DNA from: Balamuthia mandrillaris
Taxonomy: Eukaryota
DNA length: 64,000 nucleotides
Reading direction: 5' to 3'
Assembly: GCA_031835245.2 (NCBI GenBank)
Contig: JAVKOQ020000036.1
Coordinates: forward strand, 62,001 to 126,000
Positions 559 through 29,487 of the stretch are shown one piece after another. The notes below the pieces were generated by a model that was not told the origin of the DNA, did no database searches, and saw only the letters and a program-made list of their open reading frames with translations. The position numbers were made by a program, and so were the translations under genes. Numbering within the stretch: the first letter of the stretch is position 1; every line of letters begins with the position of its first letter.

Positions 559-1096
559 TCAGAGATAGCTATGAGCTTTTGTTTTGGAAGGTACAAGGGT
601 AAGGGTGGGTTCTTCTCCTTCCCTATCAAAGTGGAGCGCACAGAAAAGAAGACAAAGGAGAAGAAGCAACTGAAACGGCAAGACCGACCGAAGCCTCTTC
701 AAAACGGTCCACTCGCCGTGTGCCGCCTGCTTCTTGTTTTGTCTCTTGAGACTCTTGCGGGGTTAACACATGTCCACTGTGGAGAGCAACCGAAACCTGA
801 GCCTGGTTCCTTTTGAAGATGCCCTATCATTGAATTTTCCTTGTCTATATTGTTCATTATGAATACAGATGAATGAAAGGCTCTTTTGGCCTCATCCCAC
901 GACCCAAAGAGGGCCTACGCCGCAGGACAAAACCCAAATCCATGTTTTGGATACCCTGAAGTTTCAGCAGAACTGAACGCCGCATACAAAGCGTGAAGAA
1001 CGATGCGAAAACAGAAACTCCTCCATGATGGATTTCGAGGACAATGCTCTCCTCCAACCAAACTTTCCCATTCTTGACCAACTTCGCTTCGACCAT
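559..1096 (-). CDS. Small spliced hypothetical protein (tentative)
   Basis: Coding-like segments (MVEAKLVKNGKVWLEES..., GIFKRNQAQVSVALHSGH..., ALHFDREGEEPTLTLVPSKTKAHSYL*) are separated by pyrimidine-rich intron-like gaps. No recognisable homology. Confidence 0.3.
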
Positions 1097-1174
1097 AAAT
1101 ATCTCCCTCCTTTGGGAGAAAGAACCACAACAACAATAAACAGTTCAAACAACAAGCTCAGCGAACAAACGAAA

Positions 1175-1717
1175 ATGAAGGCAAACTCTATCAAGCTCTC
1201 GTTGGTTGCCCTGTTTTTGGCCGCCTTTGTTTCTGCTGCTTTCGGTGCGGAGGAAACAAGCAAGGCTCAAACCAAGAAGTACTACGACGGTGGCGACATC
1301 TACGATGGAGGTTACGGTGGCGGCAACGTCTTTGATGGGCGCTACGACGGAGGCAACGTCTACGATGGAGGTTACGATGGTGGCAATGTTTATGATGGTG
1401 GTTATGATGGAGGCAACGTCTACGATGGCGGCAATGTCTACGATGGAGACAACTACGACGGCCACGACATCGACTACTATGATGACTACACTGACGAGGA
1501 CGTCTATGACCCCTGCGGCGGTGATATCCACGACGGCCGTGATGGGAACGTGGATGACGGTTATGATGGCAACGTGGAGGACGGCTATGATGGCAATGAT
1601 GGCAACGTGGGAGATGGTAAGAATGATGGAAAGGACGACTCCAAGGACTCGGGAAGCAGCTCCTCCGGAAGCAGCCAGACCAGCTCTGCTGCTTCTTTGC
1701 GTCCTTTTTTCTTCTAA
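1175..1717 (+). CDS. Secreted Tyr-Asp-Gly-Gly (YDGG) repeat protein, 180 aa, intronless
   Basis: Signal peptide MKANSIKLSLVALFLAAFVSAAFG, tandem (N/D)VYDGG(YDGG) repeats, Ser-rich linker and C-terminus LRPFFF. Confidence 0.85.
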   Translation: MKANSIKLSLVALFLAAFVSAAFGAEETSKAQTKKYYDGGDIYDGGYGGGNVFDGRYDGGNVYDGGYDGGNVYDGGYDGGNVYDGGNVYDGDNYDGHDIDYYDDYTDEDVYDPCGGDIHDGRDGNVDDGYDGNVEDGYDGNDGNVGDGKNDGKDDSKDSGSSSSGSSQTSSAASLRPFFF

Positions 1718-2053: not shown

Positions 2054-2977
2054 TTAGAAGAAGAAGGGGCGCAACAAGTCAGCAGAACTCTTGTCACCGC
2101 TTTCATGGTGTCCAAAGGAACCGCTGTCGTCGGTGCTGTCTTTGGAGTCATCCTTCCCGCCATGATGCTTGCCATCGCCCACGTCTCCTCCGTCGTGATG
2201 CTTACCGTCATCCACGTCTCCTCCATCGTGATGTTTGCCATCACCGATATCTCCTCCGTCATAACCATCATCCACATCTCCTCCATCGTAGCCATCGCTG
2301 ACATTGCCTCCGTCATAACCACCATCATAAACGTTGCCACCATCATAGACGTCCCCTCCGCAGTATCCGGGACCATAGACATCATCTCCGCCATCCTCAT
2401 AGTCGTCATAGTAATCGATGTTGCCACCATCATAGCCGTCATAGTCAACGTCTCCTCCATCGTAGTCCACGTTGCCTCCGTCGTACCGTCCGTCATAGAC
2501 ATCTCCACCGTCGTAGATATCGTCTCCGTCGTAAACATTACCTCCATCATAACGTCCATCATAGATGTCACCGCCATCATAGCCAACGTTGCCACCATCG
2601 TAGATGTTACCACCGTCGTAACCAATATTTCCTCCATCGTAACGTCCATCATAGATGTCACCACCGTCGTACACATCTCCGCCATCATATCCAAGGTTGC
2701 CGCCATTGTAGATGTTACCCCCGTCGTAACGTCCGTCATTGACATCTCCACCATCGTAGCCAATGTTGCCACCATCATAGATGTTGCCGCCATTGTAGAC
2801 GTCACCGCCATCATAACCATCGTAGTCGACATCTCCCCCGTCATAGGCAACGTTACCGCCATCATAGACATCACCTCCGTCATAGCGGCTGTCGTAGACG
2901 TCACCGCCGTCATAGCCTCCACAGAGGGCAACAGAAACTAGCGTCGCCAACAACAAAGCGATGAATGTCGGTCTCAT
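2054..2977 (-). CDS. Secreted YDGG repeat protein paralog, 307 aa, intronless
   Basis: Signal peptide MRPTFIALLLATLVSVALC, dozens of YDGG units, DGKHHDGG repeats and the same C-terminus LRPFFF. Confidence 0.88.
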   Translation of the reverse strand: MRPTFIALLLATLVSVALCGGYDGGDVYDSRYDGGDVYDGGNVAYDGGDVDYDGYDGGDVYNGGNIYDGGNIGYDGGDVNDGRYDGGNIYNGGNLGYDGGDVYDGGDIYDGRYDGGNIGYDGGNIYDGGNVGYDGGDIYDGRYDGGNVYDGDDIYDGGDVYDGRYDGGNVDYDGGDVDYDGYDGGNIDYYDDYEDGGDDVYGPGYCGGDVYDGGNVYDGGYDGGNVSDGYDGGDVDDGYDGGDIGDGKHHDGGDVDDGKHHDGGDVGDGKHHGGKDDSKDSTDDSGSFGHHESGDKSSADLLRPFFF

Positions 2978-3660
2978 GGTGCACGGTTTTCTGGTTTCTC
3001 TTCTCTCTGCTTAGTTTTGATTAGTTTGGTTTGGTTTGGCTTTGAAGTTGTTGTTCGTTGTTGTTTGTAGGTTTTATGAAAGAAACTATTTATGGACGGA
3101 GGGTCAGTGCGAAGAAACGAAAGTAATGATTCGTTGTTGTTCTCCCTCCATGAAATTCAACGAGCCAGAGTATCTTGTTCGTCGCTTTTTGTCCATTCTC
3201 CTTACTCTTATCTCATTGATATAGGGCGCGCAACTCTTCCCGAGAAACTTCCCAAGAGGCTATTCCTGAATGAGGTCATAATCAATCAATTATATGTGGG
3301 CTCTATACCGGCAGCCTCATTGCCTTTTTTTCAAACATACAATCCAATGAAAAATCAAAGCCATTTTCGGGCCTCATTAGGAATTTTAGGTATTCAAAAA
3401 ATCCGATGAATTCTTGGAATGGATATCATTGTCGACACGTAGTCGACATAAATGATCCTACACCGTCGACACGAGAGTCAGCTGGGATGGCTGCGAAATT
3501 TCGAAGAGAAAACATCGAAGGAGAAAGAAGCGACAGCTCTCTCTTCCAAAACTATCCAAGCCTCTCCTGTAACAGTGGTGTTTGTTTGAAAAAGAAAACA
3601 CCCCACACTACGTACTGCGTAGTCAGCATTGGACGTTGTGATAGTTGCTCCACTCCTTCC

Positions 3661-8251: not shown

Positions 8252-8615
8252 ACCTCTTTTATTCAACCCAAAAAAAAAAAAAAACAATGAAATGTAAATA
8301 CCTTTTTTCTCTTCTCCACCATTTTCTTTCACGTTTACCGCTGGCTCGCTTTGCGTCTTCTGCCTGACGCAAGGGCAACGTGGTGTCCGCCTAAAATTCA
8401 AAAGGGCCAATAAGAAGCTCAGCTGTTTCTAAAATGAAGGTGCCCTGCTTTATGGAAAAATGTAATTATAATATGGTTATTTTGTGTTATTCGAATACCA
8501 ACAATTCAAATGCTATTGGCGGATCTTGCAAGCGTTGCTTTTTATTCCCCGGTGATATGTTTTCGGGAGTTGGGTTGGTTCCTCGTTCCTCTTGTTGGGT
8601 ATTTGAACTGCTGCT

Positions 8616-8647
<32 letters not shown>

Positions 8648-8677
8648 ATCATAACACAAGCAAACAAAAGCCTACAA

Positions 8678-11600
8678 ATGACAACGCCTTACTTTCCGGC
8701 TCTCTGTACTATTATCCTGTTCGTCTCGCTCTTTGCGTTCAGCTCGGATGCTCTGCGTGAACGTTCCGCTCAGGAGGAGCTGCTTCACCCCGGACTTTTG
8801 CCCCTTCGCTCCGGCCAAAGATTGGGGGAGGAGAGGCATCATGTCCCGCGACACAAGCCCGGCTATCTCCCCAAGTTTGGCGGGAGGAACTCCTACAGGC
8901 AGCTCAGCGATGCCCTGGCCAACGAGACCGCCATGAGCGACCCCTTCCAGAGCAACTACCAGCTCAGCAAGGCCAAGAACCTGGTCGTGGTGAACCGCTT
9001 CGAGAAGTGCGCCAGCCAGGAATGTGGAGAGCAGGTCCCAGCGACGGAGATTCTTTTGACGGAGTACAGAAAGCTGGACGGCAACAACGAGTTCCGCTAC
9101 GAACTGCCACCATTGACGGAGGTGTATGCGGTGGCCAGCCCGGACTTTGAGGGCTCTTTGCATTCAAGCCTTGTGGTGTTCTACTCCTCTGACACGGGTT
9201 CGTTTCCTGTTCCCCCTCGCTTCCCCTCCCTCATTATTGTATTACGGTTTAACATAAGGTCGTATACGCAGGGTGCAGCAGCAATGCGTACGTCATCTTG
9301 GACACCAAACACGATGACTTCGCTACCGGTAACGCCCCATCGGTGATCAAAGGCTGTCTTGGAGGCGTACGTCTTCTGCCCTCCTTTTTCCTTCAAAGCT
9401 TTTAGTTTGTTTGTTAGTGTTTTCTGTTGTTCTTTGCATAACTTCTAACTTTAAAAAAACAGGCGAACGAACAAGTGCGCGGAGTGGCGTGGGGCAACGT
9501 CAACCCAACTCCGGCCAATGAATTGCACAAGGAGGAGCTGTTGGTGGTCACCCTGACGACCTCCGGAACAAACGCTGGGAGACTGACGTTCAAGCTGTTC
9601 AGCCGAAACGAGGATACTGATCTGTTGGAAGAGCAGAGCAGATTGTTCATCGACGACGTGTATTCCTTTGAGCCAAACAACAAACTGGGAGATAGTATGT
9701 ACTGCTTACTATTACCCTCTTGTTTCTTTCTCCTTTTCTTTGTTCGCTGTTCTTGTTGTGGTGCTTGTGCTTCCTTTTTCTAACGTCTTACCCATAGTTG
9801 TGACCGGAGACTTTGATGGAGACGGTATTTGAACGCCCTCCTTTATATATCCTCATCGATAATCTTTCTTCTTCGTGTTATGTTCTGTTATAACAAACAT
9901 GGAACAGGTTTGGAAGAATTTGCCGTCTTGTACTTCACAGCCGAAGATGAAGCCGAAGTGGCCATCGTAGAGGCAGACCCACGAATGAAGCTCCTGGTCG
10001 ACACTGCCATCACCCTGGATGAGTTTGGTTCCAACGCTAAAGTCCACGGCCAAATGGCAGCTGGGCACTTGTTCAGTCCTGATTGGGAAGAACTGGCTCT
10101 TTTGTTCGGTGTTACTGCCGATAAGGTTTCTTTCTTTCTGCACCTCTCTCCCTCTTCCTCTCCTGTTTATTTCCTCTTCTATATTGATGTTGGAATGTAC
10201 CTATAACGTTTCTACCACACATTCTACAGAATGCAGACAGTGGTTTCTTTTTGTATCAGCTCAGTTTAAACAACGCTGGTTTGTTACAACAGGGAACTCC
10301 TCCTTACAAGCTTCCCAACGGAGCGATAGACAGAAGTGCAGGACACATGGGAATGGACATTGGTGTTGGGGACTTGAACGGTGACATGCGTGATGAGGTC
10401 AAACACCTTCAATTCCACCAACGCAACCTTTGGCGATCGTTCTTTCTAACCTGGACTTGTAGATTGCTTTTGTTTACACCAATGATGCATCCGGCAGCGC
10501 CTCTGGATGGCCTGCGTACCTTGGCGTGGCTGTTGCGAATCCGATAGGCTTCAGCATCATCGATACCTTTTCCGATGATCTTAACAACCTGGTAGTAAAC
10601 AATGCTCTCGGGTTGATGTGCTCCTCTCTGGCCATCGGTAGGTTCAGTCAACAAGAGGATATTGAGGTCGAGGGAATGTACGCGAACACACCCTTTAATC
10701 ATCGTGCCTCCTTCCTTCTCCTTGATCGGACTCGCTCATTCATTCCCAACAAAAAAGCTTTCAAGAACACATCGCTATCATGGGCCATGGAGTTGTGAGC
10801 CTATTCCGTCTCCTCGACGGCTCTCTGGAAAAGCTCTCCACCATGGATCCTATTCCGCGAACTGGAGGAGGACAAGAGCCCCCCACTGAACAGTACAGCA
10901 AGGAGTTCATGGTGGGGGTGTATTACGCCACCCAGAATGTTCGCTTGGGTAAGCCTCGTCACTGGAAGTACCCTCAAGTCCTCAACATTGTTGCTTCTCT
11001 TCGAAGTGCGTTTTCCCTCAACTCTCAGTGTCTCAACTCCGTTGTTTAACAAACGTTTACTCATTGCTCTCCTCTTCAGCTCCACCCAGGCATTACGACA
11101 TTGTGGATGGAGAGGTTTATGCAGTCCACGTAAATCCCCCTAACAACTTTGGATACGTCGCTACCAAGACCTCCTTCGAAACCACCCAAAGCACCGGCTC
11201 TCGTTTCAGCATCCAGTACAAGAAGAGTTGGTATGCTGGTTCTTCGTTAAATGTAAGCCGCTCTTTCGCTTCAGTTTCGTTGACTCCGTTACCTCGTCGC
11301 TTATACACTTTCATTGCATAACGAAGGTCTATTTGGGCAAAGTTACTATCGGCCTTGAAGCCTCATACGGGCAAAACTTTGAGAATGTAAACACCCAACA
11401 ATCCATCGAAACGTGGAGCGACTTGACGAACGCCGTATCGGATGACGCTCTCATTCGAACGGAAGTGATGTATGATGTGTGGGAATACCCTGTGTACTCC
11501 TTCAACTTTACCGAAACGGAACCCACGGACTACATCCTTGTCATCTGGCCGGAACGTTTGCCTGATGGCTCCGAAGCCAGAAGACTCCATTCCCTTGGGT

Positions 11601-12881
11601 GTGTTATTTTGTTTCTCTCTCTCTCTCCTTTTATATGCACTGAGTTTACTGATGTTATTTAAACTAGTTTTAAGGATCCAAACTCGTTCGTGCGTCCCTT
11701 CAACGAAGTCAATAACCTGTTTTCCTACTACTACCAAAGACCGCCCAACTTTGGTCGCCAACTGAAAGAGACCAAAGCAAACTCCTACGGAGGCGTCAGC
11801 TCCCTCTTCACAGTCACTTGGGAGGACATCCAATCCGAAGAAGGGCTCGAAACTACCAGTTGGGGAGTGGGAGCTTCCTTCGGCCTTGACGTGGTGGCCG
11901 CCACCTCCACTGGTTTCGACTTTTTTGGCAATAAGGCCTCTACCAGCGCCCGCTGGGGTTTCGACCTTCAAGTCGAAGGAGAGTACAACGAGGAGCAAAT
12001 GGAACTGGCCACAATGACCATCAGGTACTACCATTAAGACGTGTTTGAAACAAACGAATGCAAACCTTTTTTGTTGTTGAAACAGTTCAGGCATGTCGAT
12101 AACTATCCAGTTGTCAGGAAATGCAAACGGAGGGACTTATCCTTACACCATCTATCCTTATGTTTTTTATGATAAGTACCATGGCTATCTCTGCGTTGAC
12201 TTTGCGGTCGAGTTAAGCGATGCGAATCATCAAGGGACTGTCACATTCTGGGAACTTGTTTACAAGTATATTGTTTTCTCTCTGCCTCGCTTCTCCTTCT
12301 CCCTTTCTTCCACTAAAGCTTCTTATTGTTGCCTTCGCTCTGTTATAACCTGAAGTAAGCCGGATCTAACGTGGAACATGCCCTACCGATGGGACATGCT
12401 CAACAACCGCCCCTCGGACAACAAGTACTTCACCAAGTCCCTCGTGGCCAGCAACGACAACCCCGAGGCTGGCGAACAGCTCGCAGTCGTCTTCCATGCG
12501 CGCGACTACAGTCTCATCCCCGCCAAAAACGCGGTGCTCCGCTTGTTCCAAGGAGACTTCAGGAACCCTGCCAACCAGTTCGGAGAAGACGTGCTGTTGG
12601 AGGAAGTCTTTCGCGACGGCCTTTATGGAACGGTCAACGGCACATGGAGAGAGGTGGAAGAGCCATTGGATCGTTGTCTGTACGCCTGGTTGGATCCTGA
12701 CGATGAGATGGAGGAAGTCCACGAGGACAACAACGTCGGGTACATCATCATGAACGTGCAATCGTTCAGCCAGAACGAACTGGTCTTGTGCGGGGAGATC
12801 ATCAAGGACACCTTTGGCTTTGAGATTCCGCCAGACAGCCTCTCCTCCTCTTCCTCCTCCCTCGCTCCGTTTTGGCTTTAA
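8678..12881 (+). CDS. Secreted FG-GAP-repeat protein with C-terminal CARDB-like domain, copy A (multi-exon)
   Basis: Signal peptide MTTPYFPALCTIILFVSLFAFS; GDFDGDG and GDLNGDMRDE Ca-binding FG-GAP-like motifs; LDPDDEMEEVHEDNN matches the CARDB DPxNxxxExxExNN pattern; GT-AG introns. Confidence 0.75.
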
Positions 12882-12939
12882 TTGTTGATACTATTTATTT
12901 AGTTGAGAATTCTTATCACGAGAACCACAACCACATGGT

Positions 12940-13220: not shown

Positions 13221-13513
13221 ACAAACTGACGTCACCCAATGTTGAAATTCGCCTAAAGTGAGATGGACCAATGGGGTGGCCGCTTTGAAAACTATATTTG
13301 GAAATTTTAGATATGAATTAAAAGTTATTTGCCGAATTTTATTCGCTCATCTCATTAGGCCGTTTATATGCATGATGCTGTTTCTTCCCCCCACACGAAA
13401 CTTATTTTTTAAAGTTCGTTTCTTTCTCCCGTTTTTTCTCTCTCTTTATTCTGCAAAACGGTAAGGAGAGACTGGTCGCCTTTACCTTCTTCCCACCTTT
13501 TGTAAAAGCAATC

Positions 13514-16500
13514 ATGCAATATTCCAAACGGCCTGGCCTCCTTTTGCTTCTTCCTCTTTGTACGTTTAGCCTTATTTTCGGTGTTCTGCTGCTGGCAGAC
13601 CCGAGCCAAGCCCTGCGCGAGCGCTCCGCCCAGGAGGAGCTGCTTCACCCTGGGCTCTTGCCTGTTCGCTCTGGCCGACAATTGGGGGAGGAGAGGCATC
13701 ATGTCCCGCGACACAAGCCGGGATACCCTCCCAAGTTTGGCGGGAGGAACTCCTACAGGCAGCTCAGCGATGCCCTGGCCAACGAGACCGCCATGAGCGA
13801 CCCCTTCCAGAGCAACTACCAGCTCAGCAAGGCCAGAAACTTTCTCGTGGTGAACCGCTTCGAGAAGTGCAGGGATCAGGAATGTGGGGAGCAGGACCCC
13901 GCGGTGGAGCTCCTTTTGACGGAGTACAGAAAGCTGGACGGCAACAACGAGGCCCGCTACGAACTGCCACCATTGACGGAGGTGTATGCGGTGGCCAGCC
14001 CGGACTTTGAGGGCTCTTTGCATTCAAGCCTTGTGGTGTTCTACTCCTCTGACACTGGTAAGGGTCCCAGCATTTTTCTTTTCTTTGACTAACTCCCCCT
14101 CTCCCCCTTCTCTCTCTCTCTCTCTCTCTCTCTCAACAATAACAAACAACACAAAAAAGGTTGCAGCAACAATGCCTATGTAATATTTGACACTAAACAT
14201 GATAACTTTGCGAATGGCGACGACCCAGACCAAGTGAAAGGCTGTCTTGGAGGCGTACGTCCCACCTTCTATGTTCCTCCTTCTTCCCTTTCCTTTCATT
14301 CTCTGTGCAAACGAACCACTTCGACTCATTGCCTCTTATGATTCTTTCCGTGTGAAGGCTAACGAGCGAGTGCGTGGAGTGGCATGGGGCAACGTCAATC
14401 CCACACCGTTCAACGAGTTGCACAAGGATGAGTTGTTAGTGGTCACTCTGACAACTGCGGGGACCAACGCTGGCCGCCTGACATTCAAGTTGTTCATCCG
14501 AAACGAGAACACCGGGCTTTTGAATGTGGAGAGCAGTTTGTTCATCGATGACGTTTTTGCATTTGAGCCCAATAACAAACGAGGAGACGGTATGCTTCTA
14601 TGCTTCTTCTTCTTCTTCTCGTCTTCCTCATTATTATCTTTCGCCACTAAACTGACCGCTTACATTCGCTCGCAGTGGTTGCCGGAGATTTTGATGGCGA
14701 TGGTTTGCTTTCCCTTTCTCTTTAAGATGTATATAACATTCCGTGCGTATATCGGATATTCACCTTTCTTTTGTTTGAACAGGTTTGGAAGAGTTTGCTG
14801 TATTGTACTTCACCGCCAAAGATGAGGCCCAAGTGGCCATCTTGGCTGTCGACGATGACATGGCGTTGGTGTTGGACACGTCTTATACTTTGGATGATTA
14901 TGAAGGTAACGATATGAAGGTGTTTGGTCAAATGGCCGGTGGCCACTTGTACAGCCCTGATTGGGAAGAGCTGGCCATTTTGCTTGGTGTTGCCGGCGAG
15001 GAGGTTCTCTCTCTCACTCTCCCTCCCTCTGCGCCTTGATCGGTTCTCATCCCACCTCAACGAACAATAGAATGAAGACAATGGTTTCTATCTGTATCAT
15101 CTCAAATTGAGCGAGTCGGGCCAGCTGGAAGAAGGCGCTCCCTCCAACAAGCTTCCCGAAGGAGCCATCACGCGAACCGGGGGACATATGGGAATGGACA
15201 TTGGAGCTGGCGACTTCAACGGAGATACTCGTGACGAAGTACGTTTGAAACACAGAGAGAAACAAAACGAACACAGCAACAAGAAAAACAAAGTGACAAT
15301 GAAAAGTATAAGCAATAGTTTGACCTTGTTCCTTCTCTTCATAGATTGCGTTTACTTTTACGAACGACGCTAGTGGAAGCTCCTTTTCATGGAGTGCATA
15401 TCTCGGGGTTGCGGTGGTGGAACCAACGGCCATCGTCGTTGGAGACATTCATTATGACACCTTCAGCGGCGTCCTCGTGGACAGTTCAACGGATCAATTC
15501 TGCTCCTCCCTGGCTATAGGAAGGTTCAGTCAACAGGAAGAATCAGAGTTTGACGGAATGTACGTTCGTTTGCTGTTCTTCCTCTTGTCCCTGGTGAAAC
15601 CTAACGTTCTCTTTCAAATAAATAGCTTTCAAGAGCAGATTGCTGTCATGGGTCACGGCAATGTGGCGTTGTTTACCTACCTTGACGGTTCTCTGGCACA
15701 GCTTACCACCTCGGAACCCATTCCACGAACTGGGGGAGGACAGGAGCCCCCCACCGAACAGTACAGCAAGGAGTTCATGGTGGGAGTGTATTACGCCACC
15801 CAGAATGTTCGCTTGGGTAAGCCTCGTCACTGGAAGTACCCTCAAGTCCTCAACATTGTTGCTTCTCTTCGAGGTACCGTTCTATTTCTTTTGAATGTCG
15901 TTCATGTTGTTTATCATTGTTGTCTCCCTCTCTTCTTACGTCTACTGGTACCTCCTTTCTCTCTCTTTCCACTTTGTGCAGCCCCACCAAGGCATTATGA
16001 CATTGTGGATGGAGAAGTTTATGCTATTCACGTCAATCCACCCAACAACTATGGATTCATTGCCGCAAAAACTATCTTTGAAACAACCGAAAGTACCGGC
16101 TCTCGTTTTAGCGTCCAGTACAAGAAGAGTTGGTTTGCTGGTGCTGAGCTCAATGTACATATCTTCCTTTCAACGCTGTTCGCATGTTATCATGGAGCAC
16201 TAACTTTCTCGCATTCGCTTTCTTTTTCGTCACGGAACTGCATTCATGATAAAGGTCTATCTCGGGAAAGTGACGGTCGGACTAAACACGACCTATGGCC
16301 AAAACTTCGAGAACGTTAACACCGAGCAATACTCCGAGAGTTGGAGCGACGTGACCGAGGCGGTAGAGGATGACGCTCTCATTCGAACGGAAGTGATGTA
16401 TGACGTGTGGGAATACCCTGTGTACTCCTTCAACTTTACCGAAACGGAACCCACGGACTACATTCTTGTCATCTGGCCTGAACGTTTGCCTGATGGCACG

Positions 16501-17901
16501 GAGGACAGGAGGATTCATTCTCTTGGGTAGGAATTGGTTTTGCATTGTTTTCTGTGACCCTTTTAACGTTATTCTTCCCAACAAAATGCCAACAGCTTCA
16601 AGCATCCAAACTCTTTCGTAAGGCCCTTCAACGAGGTCAACAACCTCTTTTCCTACTACAATGACGTGCCTCCCAATCTCGATCGCCTGCTGAAGGCGAC
16701 CCAAGCGAATTCCTACGGAGGAATGCGTTCGCTCTATCAAGTAAGTTGGGAAGACATCGAAACAAACAAAGAGCTGCAATCCACGAGTTGGAGCGTAGGA
16801 GCGTCTTTCGGTCTCGATGTCGTGGTCGAGACCTCTACGGGCGCGCAAGCCTTTGGCAACGGAGCCAAAACCAAAGGCAAATGGGGCTTCGACCTGGAGG
16901 TTAAGGGCAAATATACCAGCCAGGAAATGGTCCTCAGTACTATGACCGTCAGGTACCTTCATTGTAAATCTCTTTTTAAAAGTTGCAACAAAAGCATAAG
17001 ATAAAAACAAAGACTGATGCACTCTTCTTCTTCTGCTTCTTTCAGTTCTGGAATGTCGATTGCGATCAAGTTGTCGGGCACATCGAATGGAGGGAGCGTT
17101 GCCTACACCGTCTATCCTTACATCTTCTACGATAAAAACGAGGGATACCTCTGCGTAGACTATCGCGTCGACCTTTCCGCAGGAGTACAACAAGGAACGG
17201 TCACCTTTTGGGAAACTGTGTACAAGTTGCGTTTTCACTCTTTTTATTCGCTCTCCTTAATTCTCCCTTTGTTCTCGTTCCGTGGAGGTTATTTTGTATA
17301 ATACCCTTTCACCTGGACCTGTTCTCTCTTTACTGGATGTTCGACTCACTTCGTTACCTCTCACAGTAAGCCGGATCTAACGTGGAACATGCCTTACCGA
17401 TGGGACATGCTCAACGGACACCCCTCTGATAACAAGTACTTCACCAAGTCCCTCGTGGCCAGCAACGACAACCCCGAGGCCGGCGAACAGCTCACCGTCA
17501 TCTTCCATGCGCGCGACTACAGTCTCATCCCCGCCAAAAACGCGGTGCTCCGCTTTTTCCAAGGAGACTTCAGGAACCCTGCCAACCAGTTCGGAGAAGA
17601 CGTGCTGTTGGAGGAAGTCTTTCAGAATGGAGCCTTTGGAGCCATCAACGGCACATGGAGAGAGGTGGAAGAGCCATTGGATCGTTGTCTGTACGCCTGG
17701 TTGGATCCTGACGATGAGATGGAGGAAGTCCACGAGGACAACAACGTCGGGTACATCATTCTGAACACCCAATTGTTCAGCGAGAACGAGCTGGTCTTTT
17801 GTGGGGATATGGTCAAGGACACCTTTGGCTTCGAGATTCCACCAGACAGTCTGGCCTCCTCCGCTTCCTCCGTGCTACCTTTTTGGAGGAGTTCATTTTG
17901 A
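13514..17901 (+). CDS. Secreted FG-GAP-repeat/CARDB-like protein, copy B (tandem paralog)
   Basis: Same exon structure as copy A; signal peptide MQYSKRPGLLLLLPLCTFSLIFGVLLLA; long near-identical blocks shared with copy A. Confidence 0.75.
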
Positions 17902-26807: not shown

Positions 26808-28579
26808 GCGTTCAGAAGTAAAATAGTGATTCCGGTTTGCTGATTATCTTCAGAAGGTTGACCTTCAGAAGAGGGAGCATGTTTCTCATCCTCGCAGCGA
26901 GAGAGAGAGAGAGAGAGAGAAGAGAAGAGAAGAGAAGAGAAGAGAAGAGAAGAGAAGAGAAGAGAAGAGAAGAGAAGAGAAGAGAAGAGAAGAAGAGAAG
27001 AGAAGAGAAGAGAAGAGAAGAGAAGAGAAGAGAAGAGAAGAGAAGAGAAGAGAAGAGAAGAGAAGAGAAGAGAAGAGAAGAGAAGAGAAGAGAAGAGAAG
27101 AGAAGAGAAGAGAAGAGAAGAGAACGATGAAGAGAAGAGAAGAGAAGAGAAGAGAAGAGAAGAGAAGAGAAGAGAAGAGAAGAGAAGAGAAGAGAAGAGA
27201 AGAGAAGAGAAGAGAACGATGAAGAGAAGAGAAGAGAAGAGAAGAGAAGAGAAGAGAAGAGAAGAGAAGAGAAGAGAAGAGAACGATGAAGAGAAGAGAA
27301 CGATGAAGAGAAGAGAACGATGAAGAGAAGAGAACGATGAAGAGAAGAGAAGAGAACGATGAAGAGAAGAGAACGATGAAGAGAAGAGAACGATGAAGAG
27401 AAGAGAAGAGAAAGAGAGAAAGAGAGAAAGAGAGAAAGAGAAAGGGGGATGAGAACCCTAGTGGACATGTTCAAAATAAGGGAAGTAACCAAGTCGTCCA
27501 AAACGCTAACAGCAACATCCTTATTGTCTTCATCCTGTCGGAACGGTTTGCTCTCCACCACAGCAGTCAAGCAGGGGAAAGCGCCCTGTTTAAATAGGGG
27601 CCGTGAGTTTGAGACGTCTTATAAAGTAATAAAGGGTAAAATACCTTCTTCAAGGCCTTGTTGAAAATGAACAGTATGTCCTTTTCTTCGACGCGTTCAC
27701 TGGAAAGACCCGACTATGGTATGGAAAGAGATTGTTTGTAAGGACAAAAACCACAACAGAGGACATTAAAAGAAAAAGTTACCGTGGCTATGAACTGTAA
27801 ATAAAGAGCCCACGCAAACATCACTGGTCCTTGAAAAAACGCTGGTGAAAAAAGAAAAGAAACAAGTTCAGCAAACAGAGGAAAGAAAGAATGGAAGAAA
27901 GGAAGAGAGAACCATTTCGCCACTTAGAAGTCAGTTTGCGAGTAAAATCAGAGATGAATCTTTTGTCGGTAAGAAGAGAAACAGCCGCAGAGGAGCGTGC
28001 AGAAAGAGAGGAGCCAGGAGAACTCGATCCTCCTCCAATTCCATCCTCATTTCGGGAATCCACCAACTCTCCTTGTCTCTCCACATCGAGGAAGCAAAGA
28101 ATGGTGATTAGCAACAGTTGCGTCACATGAAGCAAGTCCATGTCTGTCGGATTCTTTTTCAGTGCTGAACTGCACTTCTCATAAAGATCTATCAAAGCGA
28201 GGGCTTCCTCCGGAGGGATGACTACTTGATAATAAATAGAAAGCAGACAGGAAACGAGCAATACGCGTTCCTCAGCATAAAAGCCAATTCGCCGTTGTCG
28301 TTTTTCTTGTGCTGCGGTTGACGATGGAGCTTGCGCACCTTGAGCAGGAGCAGGCTCGTTTGTCTGCAATAAATATGAACGTGTGTCAGAGAATGAAAGA
28401 GCGACAGCAAAGAGGGCAGTGATACCAAAACGAGGTCAATGAGGCGTTTGGCAAGACCTTCGGCAATGAGCTCGTTGGTAAATTGAATGATCAACGCTCG
28501 TAAACCCTCGGATATGTCTGGATCTCCTCTTCCCTGATAACAACAATGATAGCAGTTTAAGTAAACTAATAGAAAGGAG

Positions 28580-28610
<31 letters not shown>

Positions 28611-29487
28611 GTTCGATAGTTTCCAACAACCACAAAAAGAGGCAGAGGAAATTTGATAGAAACCATCAAAGTGTGTTATTATTAACACATTTTGATTGAT
28701 CGCTTTTGCACAACAAACACGCCCGTGACCTATGGGTTTGTGTAAAATTGTTTTACACCAAGTCAAGGGTTCTAGCGTGTGCTCTTCTAGGGATGGAACT
28801 TGGGATGAATGAGAGCGAAGCGAACGAGAGGTTACCCGCAAGAGATTCAACAAGGAATGCAAAAGATGTTGCCGCTCAGCAAAGTAGATCAGTTCTGCTT
28901 TTGTTAGAACCTCCTCTGCCTCTAGTGCATAACTACCCAACTGTATCATAGAAGAAACACAACATAATATAGTGAGAGAGAGAGAGAGAGAGAGAGAGAA
29001 CAAAGAGCGAAGACAGAGTTGAAGACAAAGAGTGCGTTCAGATAAAAATAGTGATTCCGGTTTGCTTGCTTTCTTCAAAAGAGGCTTCATAGCACTTCAG
29101 AAGAGGGAGCATGTTTCTCATCTTTTGCAGAGAAGCGAAGAGTACGACTACAAACAGAGAACGAAAATGTTTTTTTTAAAAAAAGAGCATTACCTCTTCA
29201 TACGCAGACCGCAACAGCATAACGCTGGATATTTCGTTCAAGTTAAGGTCATCGCTCAACACAAGAGCCTATTTTGAAAACAAGAACATTTGTCAAATGA
29301 ATGAGAGGAAAAGAGAAAGCGAAAAGAATGAGAGAGAGAGTAGGTCTGCAAGATTCAGAAGTAAAATAGTGATTCCGGTTTGCTGAGTATCTTCAAAAGC
29401 AAAAAGACTTGCCTCAGAAGAGGGAGCATGTTTCTCATCACTTTTGCAGAGGGTAGACTAGCGAGAACTCCAAAGGAAAGAGAGGGA

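What the first reader, a model, noticed from the sequence alone, without database searches (positions are those of the whole stretch)
28602..28805. Candidate three-hairpin H/H/ACA pseudouridylation guide RNA in a NUP205 intron
Seen on the minus strand: three consecutive hairpins with bipartite pockets, followed by ANANNA (AAAACA), ANANNA (ATAATA) and ACA. Knowledge: typical eukaryotic H/ACA RNAs have two hairpins. Inferred targets from remembered rRNA: hairpin 2 pockets ACCCATA/ATCAA fit 18S UUGAU-Psi-C-UAUGGGU, about 14 nt from the H box. Hairpin 3 pockets TCTATC/CTATCGA fit the 18S UCGAUGGU..GAUAGA region. Hairpin 1 pockets ATCC/CCCTTG fit LSU CAAG(G/C)G-UU-GGAU next to the A-loop. A triple-guide RNA would be an unusual architecture.
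Basis: partly seen in the sequence, partly recalled or inferred. Interest (0 to 1): 0.8.

Follow-up and report, generated by a model that had tools for sequence, protein, structure and literature searches.

The report
Three-hairpin H/ACA RNA in amoeba intron
An intron of a nuclear-pore gene in the amoeba Balamuthia yields an abundant small RNA whose DNA shows three hairpin-and-box units where eukaryotes normally have two; it likely guides pseudouridine formation in ribosomal RNA, but public reads cover only half of the first hairpin, so whether the finished RNA keeps all three units is unresolved.

Summary
The RNA is real. It lies in a spliced 302-nt intron of the Nup192/205-family gene of Balamuthia mandrillaris. 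In three RNA-seq runs of one study, depth is 63-273 over it and 0-7 on the exon beside it. The three boxes and three possible hairpins are present. Hairpin 3 fits a different 18S site best under canonical geometry (5 of 200). Hairpin 1's target is unsupported on the proxy, though its shape plus H box is rare by chance (3-39 of 5000 shuffles). Reads run 20-30 nt past the two-hairpin boundary, so a plain 140-nt RNA is not the main form. They stop at 28767-28787 and never cover hairpin 1's 5' arm. I give about 45% to an intact three-unit RNA and 35% to a two-hairpin guide with a 5' leader. A 2025 paper proposes that eukaryotes are limited to two units, so an intact form would test that directly.

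The parts
28836..28940 (-). Upstream exon of the Nup192/205-family host gene
   Evidence: Open frame; other exons of the gene hit PF11894; this exon alone gave no Pfam hit
28534..28835 (-). Host intron, GT...AG, 302 nt
   Evidence: Spliced contig of run X12 joins 28836 to the next exon; joined frame is open. The nearer AG at 28566 is not the one used in that contig
28758..28803 (-). Hairpin 1: 6-bp lower stem, 7+8-nt pocket, 4-bp upper stem, 11-nt loop; presence in the mature RNA unresolved
   Evidence: Sequence; chance 3-39 of 5000 shuffles; reads cover its 3' half only
28749..28754 (-). First H box (AAAACA), 3 nt after hairpin 1
   Evidence: inside the read-covered body with no listed variant
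28685..28743 (-). Hairpin 2: 5-bp lower stem, 8+8-nt pocket; predicted guide for proxy 18S U1565/U1566 (human 1314/1315 by anchor offsets)
   Evidence: Top target, 2 of 200 shuffled pockets as good; anchors
28674..28682 (-). Second H box: ATAATA (28682-28677) overlapped by ATAACA (28679-28674)
   Evidence: a second copy (127 of 416 reads at 28682) loses the first and keeps the second
28665..28696 (-). Competing 13-pair hairpin that pairs hairpin 2's 3' pocket and stem with the hinge
   Evidence: as long a hairpin in 31 of 1000 shuffles of the whole RNA
28608..28666 (-).
   Evidence: 5 of 200 shuffled pockets as good
28602..28607 (-). ACA box (28607-28605) and predicted 3' end at 28602
   Evidence: molecules begin or end at 28606-28616 in three runs; one piece of a soil RNA run starts at 28606
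28606..28775 (-). Read-covered body of the RNA (minimum extent, 170 nt); strand inferred from boxes and host gene
   Evidence: library appears unstranded

Best explanation
An intron of the NUP205-family gene of Balamuthia yields an abundant RNA of at least 170 nt whose gene shows three hairpin-plus-box units; it is likely a box H/ACA snoRNA of about 204 nt that would bind three sets of Cbf5, Nop10, Nhp2 and Gar1, with hairpins 2 and 3 predicted to guide pseudouridines in 18S rRNA and hairpin 1 possibly guiding one beside the LSU A-loop. SHOWN: intron, boxes, accumulation, an extent beyond two hairpins, a 3' end within 4-9 nt of ACA+3. INFERRED from established H/ACA biology: release from the spliced intron by exonuclease trimming up to protein-protected ends; each hairpin held by its box about 14-16 nt from the pocket top; the target uridine left unpaired and isomerised by Cbf5. 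INFERRED and weakest: hairpin 1 is intact, and the missing 28-39 nt at the 5' end are lost in second-strand cDNA synthesis.
For: Depth 149, 273 and 63 over 28668-28680 against 1, 7 and 0 on the exon (three runs, one study). The 3' ends fit ACA+3. In X19 depth is 381 at 28744-28754 against 418 at 28733-28743 and still 273 at 28755-28765, so the first H box and hairpin 1's 3' arm are in most molecules, the second copy's included. Hairpin 1 geometry plus box by chance: 3 of 5000 strict, 39 of 5000 relaxed, 16 of 2974 tiles. Hairpins 2 and 3 each have a top 18S target at canonical distance (2 and 5 of 200 shuffles). The second copy's pocket changes keep pairing: A28733G gives G.U, U28658C turns G.U into G-C on the proxy. 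Hairpin 1's site lies at the uridine pair that includes human 28S Psi4463, by anchors Gm4464/Um4468/Gm4469/Psi4470. Hairpin 1 is unchanged in DNA run X7 and has one pocket-base change in X14.
Against: No read spans hairpin 1's 5' arm: 72 molecules end at 28767 and 28 at 28775 among 580 laid reads; depth is 2.8 at 28777-28787 and 0 at 28788-28798. A 5' end at 28803-28806 needs a loss of 28-39 nt; the figure I recall for this chemistry is 8-21 nt (paper not held), which points to an end near 28785. No control RNA was laid to calibrate the loss. Hairpin 1's target is not significant on the proxy (rank 5 of 73; 141 of 200 shuffles reach the top score). The three-hairpin fold is 24 kcal/mol above the free fold. 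Pocket fits are common: 501 of 5698 boxes in the window score 28 or more under a looser search. The hairpin 2 and best hairpin 3 sites are not pseudouridines in the human table passages read. Both pocket changes also improve internal helices. One related copy (32 reads) has no H box in the 30 nt before hairpin 3. PMC12745780 gives a structural reason against a third unit.
Confidence: 0.45

Rival explanations
1. The mature RNA is a two-hairpin H/ACA guide (hairpins 2 and 3) of about 185 nt with a 35-40 nt 5' leader that begins inside hairpin 1's loop. Hairpin 1 would be a vestige, a unit trimmed away because a third protein set binds poorly, or chance; trimming would stall at the stem 28780-28775/28722-28717.
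For: Read ends at 28775 and 28767 are 10-13 and 18-21 nt from 28785-28788, within the recalled 8-21 nt loss. The free fold has its most probable 5' stem starting at 28780 (pair probabilities 0.49-0.93). Leaders of about 40 nt occur in some H/ACA RNAs (PMC7601244). A related copy seems to have a U-rich flank in place of hairpin 1 (loose-end consensus, agreement only 0.78-0.83).
Against: It leaves a textbook hairpin plus H box to chance or decay (0.06-0.8% of shuffles), yet its stems are unbroken. Intronic H/ACA RNAs are normally trimmed close to the first hairpin (own knowledge).
Confidence: 0.35
2. The RNA has two working units, hairpin 1 with the first H box and hairpin 3 with ACA. The middle 80 nt would be an inserted structural domain of two small hairpins, as in snR30/U17, and the second H box and hairpin 2 pocket would be coincidence.
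For: This fold is 9.6 kcal/mol more stable than the three-guide fold. The second copy's A28733G strengthens the local hairpin 28736-28722 from -2.8 to -6.9 kcal/mol. One related copy has a GC-rich 7-bp hinge hairpin and no H box. Another shows a double change that keeps the outer hinge stem. The 23 nt 28730-28708 are the best-kept part among copies, not the pockets.
Against: Hairpin 2's pocket gives the clearest target of the three (2 of 200 shuffles). The second copy keeps ATAACA at 16-17 nt from the pocket top. The copy with the shortened hinge has an ANANNA at the same spacing before hairpin 3. The 13-pair hairpin arises in 31 of 1000 shuffles. It also needs hairpin 1 intact.
Confidence: 0.12
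3. The RNA is the amoeba's U17/snR30 or another non-guide ACA RNA acting in pre-rRNA processing.
For: Length about 200 nt, several internal hairpins, high abundance; AAACTAT 8 nt before ACA resembles motif m2 (AAACCAU).
Against: Motif m1 (AUAUUCCUA in 14 of 14 species listed, last letter varying) is absent from the basal 5' side of hairpin 3. No Rfam U17/snR30 match even at E 10. The pocket pairs in guide orientation with 18S positions 113-128.
Confidence: 0.05
4. It is an ordinary two-hairpin snoRNA of about 145 nt, and the extra reads come from precursor.
For: One 151-nt piece of soil RNA run X15 matches 28606-28753 and has 3 unmatched letters at that end.
Against: About nine tenths of the depth continues past 28745 in X19 (381 of 418), and similarly in X18 and X20.
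Confidence: 0.03

Closest known systems
Canonical eukaryotic box H/ACA pseudouridylation guide snoRNAs (hairpin-H-hairpin-ACA)
   Same: Intronic, accumulates far above its host exon, ACA near the 3' end, bipartite pockets 13-16 nt from the boxes, rRNA complementarity (rules as in PMC1865073 and PMC2780460).
   Different: A further hairpin and H box lie 5' of the two-hairpin core, and the RNA extends into them. No Rfam family matches.
Archaeal H/ACA sRNAs with three hairpins
   Same: Three hairpin-plus-box units in one RNA (PMC7991803, PMC5778458, PMC12745780).
   Different: Eukaryotic host and intronic origin, with ANANNA boxes. Archaeal Cbf5 lacks the N-terminal extension proposed to limit eukaryotes to two units. 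K-turns were not looked for here.
snR30/U17
   Same: About 200 nt, more than two hairpins, ACA tail (PMC7601244).
   Different: Its third hairpin is internal, has no box and guides nothing. It needs motifs m1 and m2; m1 is absent here.
Human tandem H/ACA scaRNA (one listed, four antisense elements, PMC4914119; the name U93/SCARNA13 is recalled)
   Same: Shows that a eukaryotic RNA can hold more than two H/ACA hairpins.
   Different: It is two complete pairs aimed at spliceosomal RNA. Here the number is odd and the predicted targets are rRNA.

Membership tests
Box H/ACA guide snoRNA | ACA box three nucleotides before the 3' end | tested here: inconclusive
   ACA at 28607-28605; read ends at 28606-28616 fit 28602 within 4-14 nt, but random-primed libraries cannot place the end exactly
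Box H/ACA guide snoRNA | H box (ANANNA) in the hinge after a 5' hairpin | tested here: met
   ATAATA/ATAACA after hairpin 2 and AAAACA after hairpin 1; the second copy keeps ATAACA; one related copy lacks it
Box H/ACA guide snoRNA | Hairpins with an internal pocket | tested here: inconclusive
   Can form, but are not the preferred fold of the naked RNA
Box H/ACA guide snoRNA | 9-13 base pairs flanking an unpaired UN, 14-16 nt from the box | tested here: met
   Hairpin 2: 12 pairs at 13-14 nt; hairpin 3: 14 pairs at 14 nt. Tested on a proxy rRNA (L009), not the organism's own
Box H/ACA guide snoRNA | Stable accumulation as a discrete RNA | tested here: met
   Depth 63-273 against 0-7 on the exon, sharp edges, three runs of one study; one piece in an unrelated soil RNA run
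Box H/ACA guide snoRNA | Binding to Cbf5/Nop10/Nhp2/Gar1 and target pseudouridylation | not testable with these tools
   No such data reachable
Three-unit H/ACA guide (archaeal type of layout) | All three hairpins present in the mature RNA | tested here: inconclusive
   The 3' half of hairpin 1 and its box are covered; its 5' arm is not; 5' loss of the library was not calibrated
Three-unit H/ACA guide (archaeal type of layout) | A target for the extra hairpin | tested here: inconclusive
   Not significant on the proxy; the needed rRNA letter was not found in viral or prokaryote collections; the organism's rRNA was unavailable
snR30/U17 | Motif m1 (AUAUUCCUA) on the basal 5' side of the 3' hairpin | tested here: not met
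   Sequence against Table 1 of PMC7601244
snR30/U17 | Motif m2 (AAACCAU) on the basal 3' side | tested here: inconclusive
   AAACTAT, one change, 8 nt before ACA
Any Rfam family | Covariance-model score at the gathering threshold | tested here: not met
   0 hits in the window; 3 sub-threshold hits at E 2.9-6.8, none H/ACA

The most novel reading that the evidence does not exclude
A eukaryote runs a three-protomer H/ACA snoRNP: one 204-nt intronic RNA carries three working guide hairpins and sets three rRNA pseudouridines, two in 18S and one beside the A-loop of the catalytic centre. That would break the proposed two-protomer limit of eukaryotic Cbf5.
Probability: 0.3. Interest if true: 0.8.

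Novelty: new variant of a known kind. Interest (0 to 1): 0.57.

Why it matters
PMC12745780 (PNAS 2025, section 14 read in full) asks why eukaryotic H/ACA snoRNAs have no more than two hairpins. It notes that there is room for a third protein set and proposes that the asymmetric contact of the Cbf5 N-terminal extensions limits them to two. A natural RNA with three hairpin-box units tests that idea either way. If the first unit is kept and active, the limit is wrong or has an amoebozoan exception. If it is trimmed off, as the read ends may show, this is a natural case of a third unit failing to hold. It is also an uncatalogued, expressed snoRNA family with several copies in a lineage for which my one search listed no H/ACA survey.

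Tried and rejected
ADAPTER FILTERING. Hairpin 1's loop is identical over 12 nt (28787-28776) to the Illumina adapter, the longest such match in the window, and reads stop at its edge. Largely rejected: adapters appear unfiltered in the loose ends, their low agreement fits a mix of read-1 and read-2 adapters, and lowering likeness to 80% brought no spanning read. A library effect of this motif cannot be fully excluded.

A THIRD COPY defined by about 25 further letter differences. Rejected as probable sequencing noise: the share rose from about 9% to 30-38% when likeness was lowered, most occur in reads with 4 or more other differences (though for some positions the cleanest read has 0-2), and the change types fit two-colour signal loss (own knowledge).

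LOOP-LOOP PAIRING of hairpins 1 and 2: 3118 of 10000 shuffles give as long a run.

U17/snR30: m1 absent.

HOMOLOGUES. Viral contigs: 3 hits to an 18-mer, alignments of 18-28 nt, about what chance gives (one of the three read). A 23-mer found nothing in viral or prokaryote collections. No copy elsewhere in the window. No whole genome was held, and the single metagenome scan went to rRNA.

ORGANISM'S OWN rRNA. None of the 99 fetched loci carried a recalled genus-diagnostic primer motif.

MODIFICATION MAPS. Chaetomium and trypanosome maps could not be placed on the proxy: supplement parts 1 and 85 of 87 of PMC12723226; file 14 of PMC10662448; a search that skipped 6 of its 18 files. Unseen supplements may show whether the hairpin 2 and 3 sites are modified in other species.

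MY SCAN for other H/ACA RNAs in the window was too unspecific to give a control.

Full report
SETTING. On the minus strand the finding lies in a gene whose exons hit Pfam Nup192/205 (5 of 7 tested). One exon is 99% identical to an NCBI protein labelled Balamuthia mandrillaris (1 hit among 719 candidates). The intron runs 28835-28534. A contig of run X12 joins the flanking exons there and the joined frame is open. No whole genome was held. Rfam found nothing in the window at gathering score and nothing H/ACA-like over the intron at E 10.

WHAT THE SEQUENCE SHOWS. Hairpin 1 has a 6-bp lower stem, a 7+8-nt pocket, a 4-bp upper stem and an H box 3 nt later. Such a unit arose in 3 of 5000 shuffles of that intron part under a rule fitted to it, in 39 of 5000 under a looser rule, and in 16 of 2974 window tiles. 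The region folds better than 198 of 200 shuffles, but not into the three-hairpin form. That form costs -24.9 against -49.3 kcal/mol free, and other helices dominate: 28780-28775 with 28722-28717, 28757-28751 with 28747-28741, and a hinge hairpin 28696-28665. H/ACA RNAs fold on their proteins, so this is a caution and no refutation (own knowledge).

EXPRESSION AND ENDS. Three raw RNA runs of one study (3-5% of each read) gave depth 149, 273 and 63 over 28668-28680 against 1, 7 and 0 on the exon. First mates lie on both strands, so the strand is inferred. The 3' side begins at 28606-28616, next to ACA+3. One piece of an unrelated soil RNA run spans 28606-28753. On the 5' side X19 keeps depth 381 at 28744-28754 (418 just before), 273 at 28755-28765, 79 at 28766-28776, 2.8 at 28777-28787 and 0 at 28788-28798. 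Of 580 laid reads, 72 molecules end at 28767 and 28 at 28775. A plain two-hairpin RNA starting near 28748 is therefore not the main form. An intact hairpin 1 needs 28-39 nt lost in library making; an end near 28785-28788 needs 10-21. I recall 8-21 nt for this chemistry (D'Alessio and Gerard 1988; not held; a search found no substitute). I laid no control RNA, so this is the open point.

TARGETS. I fetched 96 eukaryotic rDNA loci and used L009 as a proxy. It is a full unit that I judge Acanthamoeba-like from its sequence (recalled likeness). Hairpin 3 is best at 18S 119 (8+6 at 14 nt) or 118 (5 of 200). Hairpin 1's LSU site ranks 5 of 73, with a C.C mismatch, and 141 of 200 shuffles reach the top score. 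That rRNA letter varies: 2 C, 8 T and 1 G among 11 loci. By anchor offsets to the human table (passages of Table 1 of PMC6182160), the hairpin 1 site is U4462/Psi4463, the hairpin 2 site is 1314/1315 (not listed as modified), and the hairpin 3 site is 116-117, two to three bases from Psi119. A looser scan shows how common pocket fits are: 501 of 5698 boxes score 28 or more (my sum).

NATURAL VARIANTS. About 30% of reads carry a second copy (129 of 420 at 28733; 127 of 416 at 28682; 80 of 485 at 28658). It has no listed difference over 28734-28784, keeps rRNA pairing in both pockets, and loses ATAATA but keeps ATAACA. Its changes also strengthen internal helices, so they do not decide between models. 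Two more divergent copies are seen only through 30-nt loose ends. One (36 joined reads) has a shorter hinge with an ANANNA at the same spacing. One (32 reads) has a GC-rich hinge hairpin and no H box. I dropped about 25 further differences as probable noise (see Tried and rejected). Hairpin 1 is identical in DNA run X7 and differs by one pocket base in X14. No homologue outside the species was found; those collections hold few eukaryotes.

HOW IT LIKELY WORKS. After splicing, exonucleases would trim the intron to ends protected by Cbf5, Nop10, Nhp2 and Gar1. Each box would hold its hairpin so that the uridine at the pocket top reaches the Cbf5 active site (passages of PMC5778458, PMC1865073, PMC12745780). 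I put the H/ACA guide core of hairpins 2 and 3 at about 0.8. For the first unit: intact 0.45, trimmed to a leader 0.35, intact with a merely structural middle 0.12. All three pockets active: 0.3.

COMPARISON WITH WHAT IS KNOWN. It works like a canonical H/ACA guide and meets the testable features of that family, apart from fold and exact ends, which are inconclusive. It fails the U17/snR30 test on motif m1. Three-hairpin guides are described for archaea. One review sentence says RNAs with one or three hairpins occur in selected eukaryotes without naming any (PMC7601244), and humans have one tandem H/ACA scaRNA (PMC4914119). So more than two hairpins is not unheard of. Five searches of the held library (three hairpins, three-hairpin, third hairpin, three stem-loop, three hairpin with protist) listed 9, 0, 2, 6 and 2 papers. 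In the passages I read, none named a eukaryotic RNA with three guide units; I saw most of those papers as listings only. The amoebozoan search (30 of 541 listed) showed no H/ACA survey, and the Dictyostelium paper searched for passages deals with box C/D RNAs. Marz et al. 2011 on exceptional snoRNA structures was not held and may bear on novelty. The other papers opened gave passages or supplement parts that did not change the reading.

EARLIER SCAN NOTES. Nothing by sequence or place. By words, a three-hairpin reading in another genome was reduced to two hairpins and a U17-like reading to a guide. I did not test these; they only add caution.

VERDICT. A real, uncatalogued, expressed H/ACA-type RNA with an extra hairpin-box unit in its gene and an unexplained 5' extension in its reads. 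New variant of a known kind; interest 0.57, or 0.8 if all three units prove active.

Noticed in passing
window minus strand; motif starts at 26871, 29103, 29420, 41971, 46162: Five near-identical box C/D snoRNA-like copies of about 90-100 nt, three in introns of the NUP205-family gene and two in introns of a gene I read as the RNA polymerase I largest subunit (name recalled). Rfam found none. One element has a 9-nt antisense match to proxy 18S near position 450; it breaks off there, so the organism's 18S may differ from the proxy.
   Followed up: partly
window 28602-28775, reads of X18-X20 and a contig of X7: The RNA belongs to a small family: a second copy or allele at about 30% of reads, and at least two more divergent copies that share hairpin 3 or the 23 nt 28730-28708 but differ in the hinge. 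One variant copy is present as DNA in X7. The copies could not be phased.
   Followed up: partly
window 28776-28787: A genomic 12-mer identical to part of the Illumina read-1 adapter. It is genomic (spanned by pieces of X14 and X7), but adapter trimmers could clip this RNA in other studies.
   Followed up: yes
window 28670-28652: The RNA carries its own copy of the hairpin 3 target (9 nt identical to proxy 18S 121-129) just before the pocket that would pair with it, and a near copy of the hairpin 2 target in the hinge and the loop. This could be a self-closing switch or chance.
   Followed up: partly
window 8438-12890 and 13376-17901: Two tandem, closely similar genes for a large protein with a hydrophobic N-terminus; not identified.
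   Followed up: no
window 977-1717 and 2054-3010: Two head-to-tail convergent genes for signal-peptide proteins built of YDGG-type repeats, possibly cyst-wall or surface proteins (inference).
   Followed up: no
window about 26900-27450: A roughly 550-nt CTCTT-type microsatellite fills one NUP205 intron, followed by one of the C/D copies.
   Followed up: no
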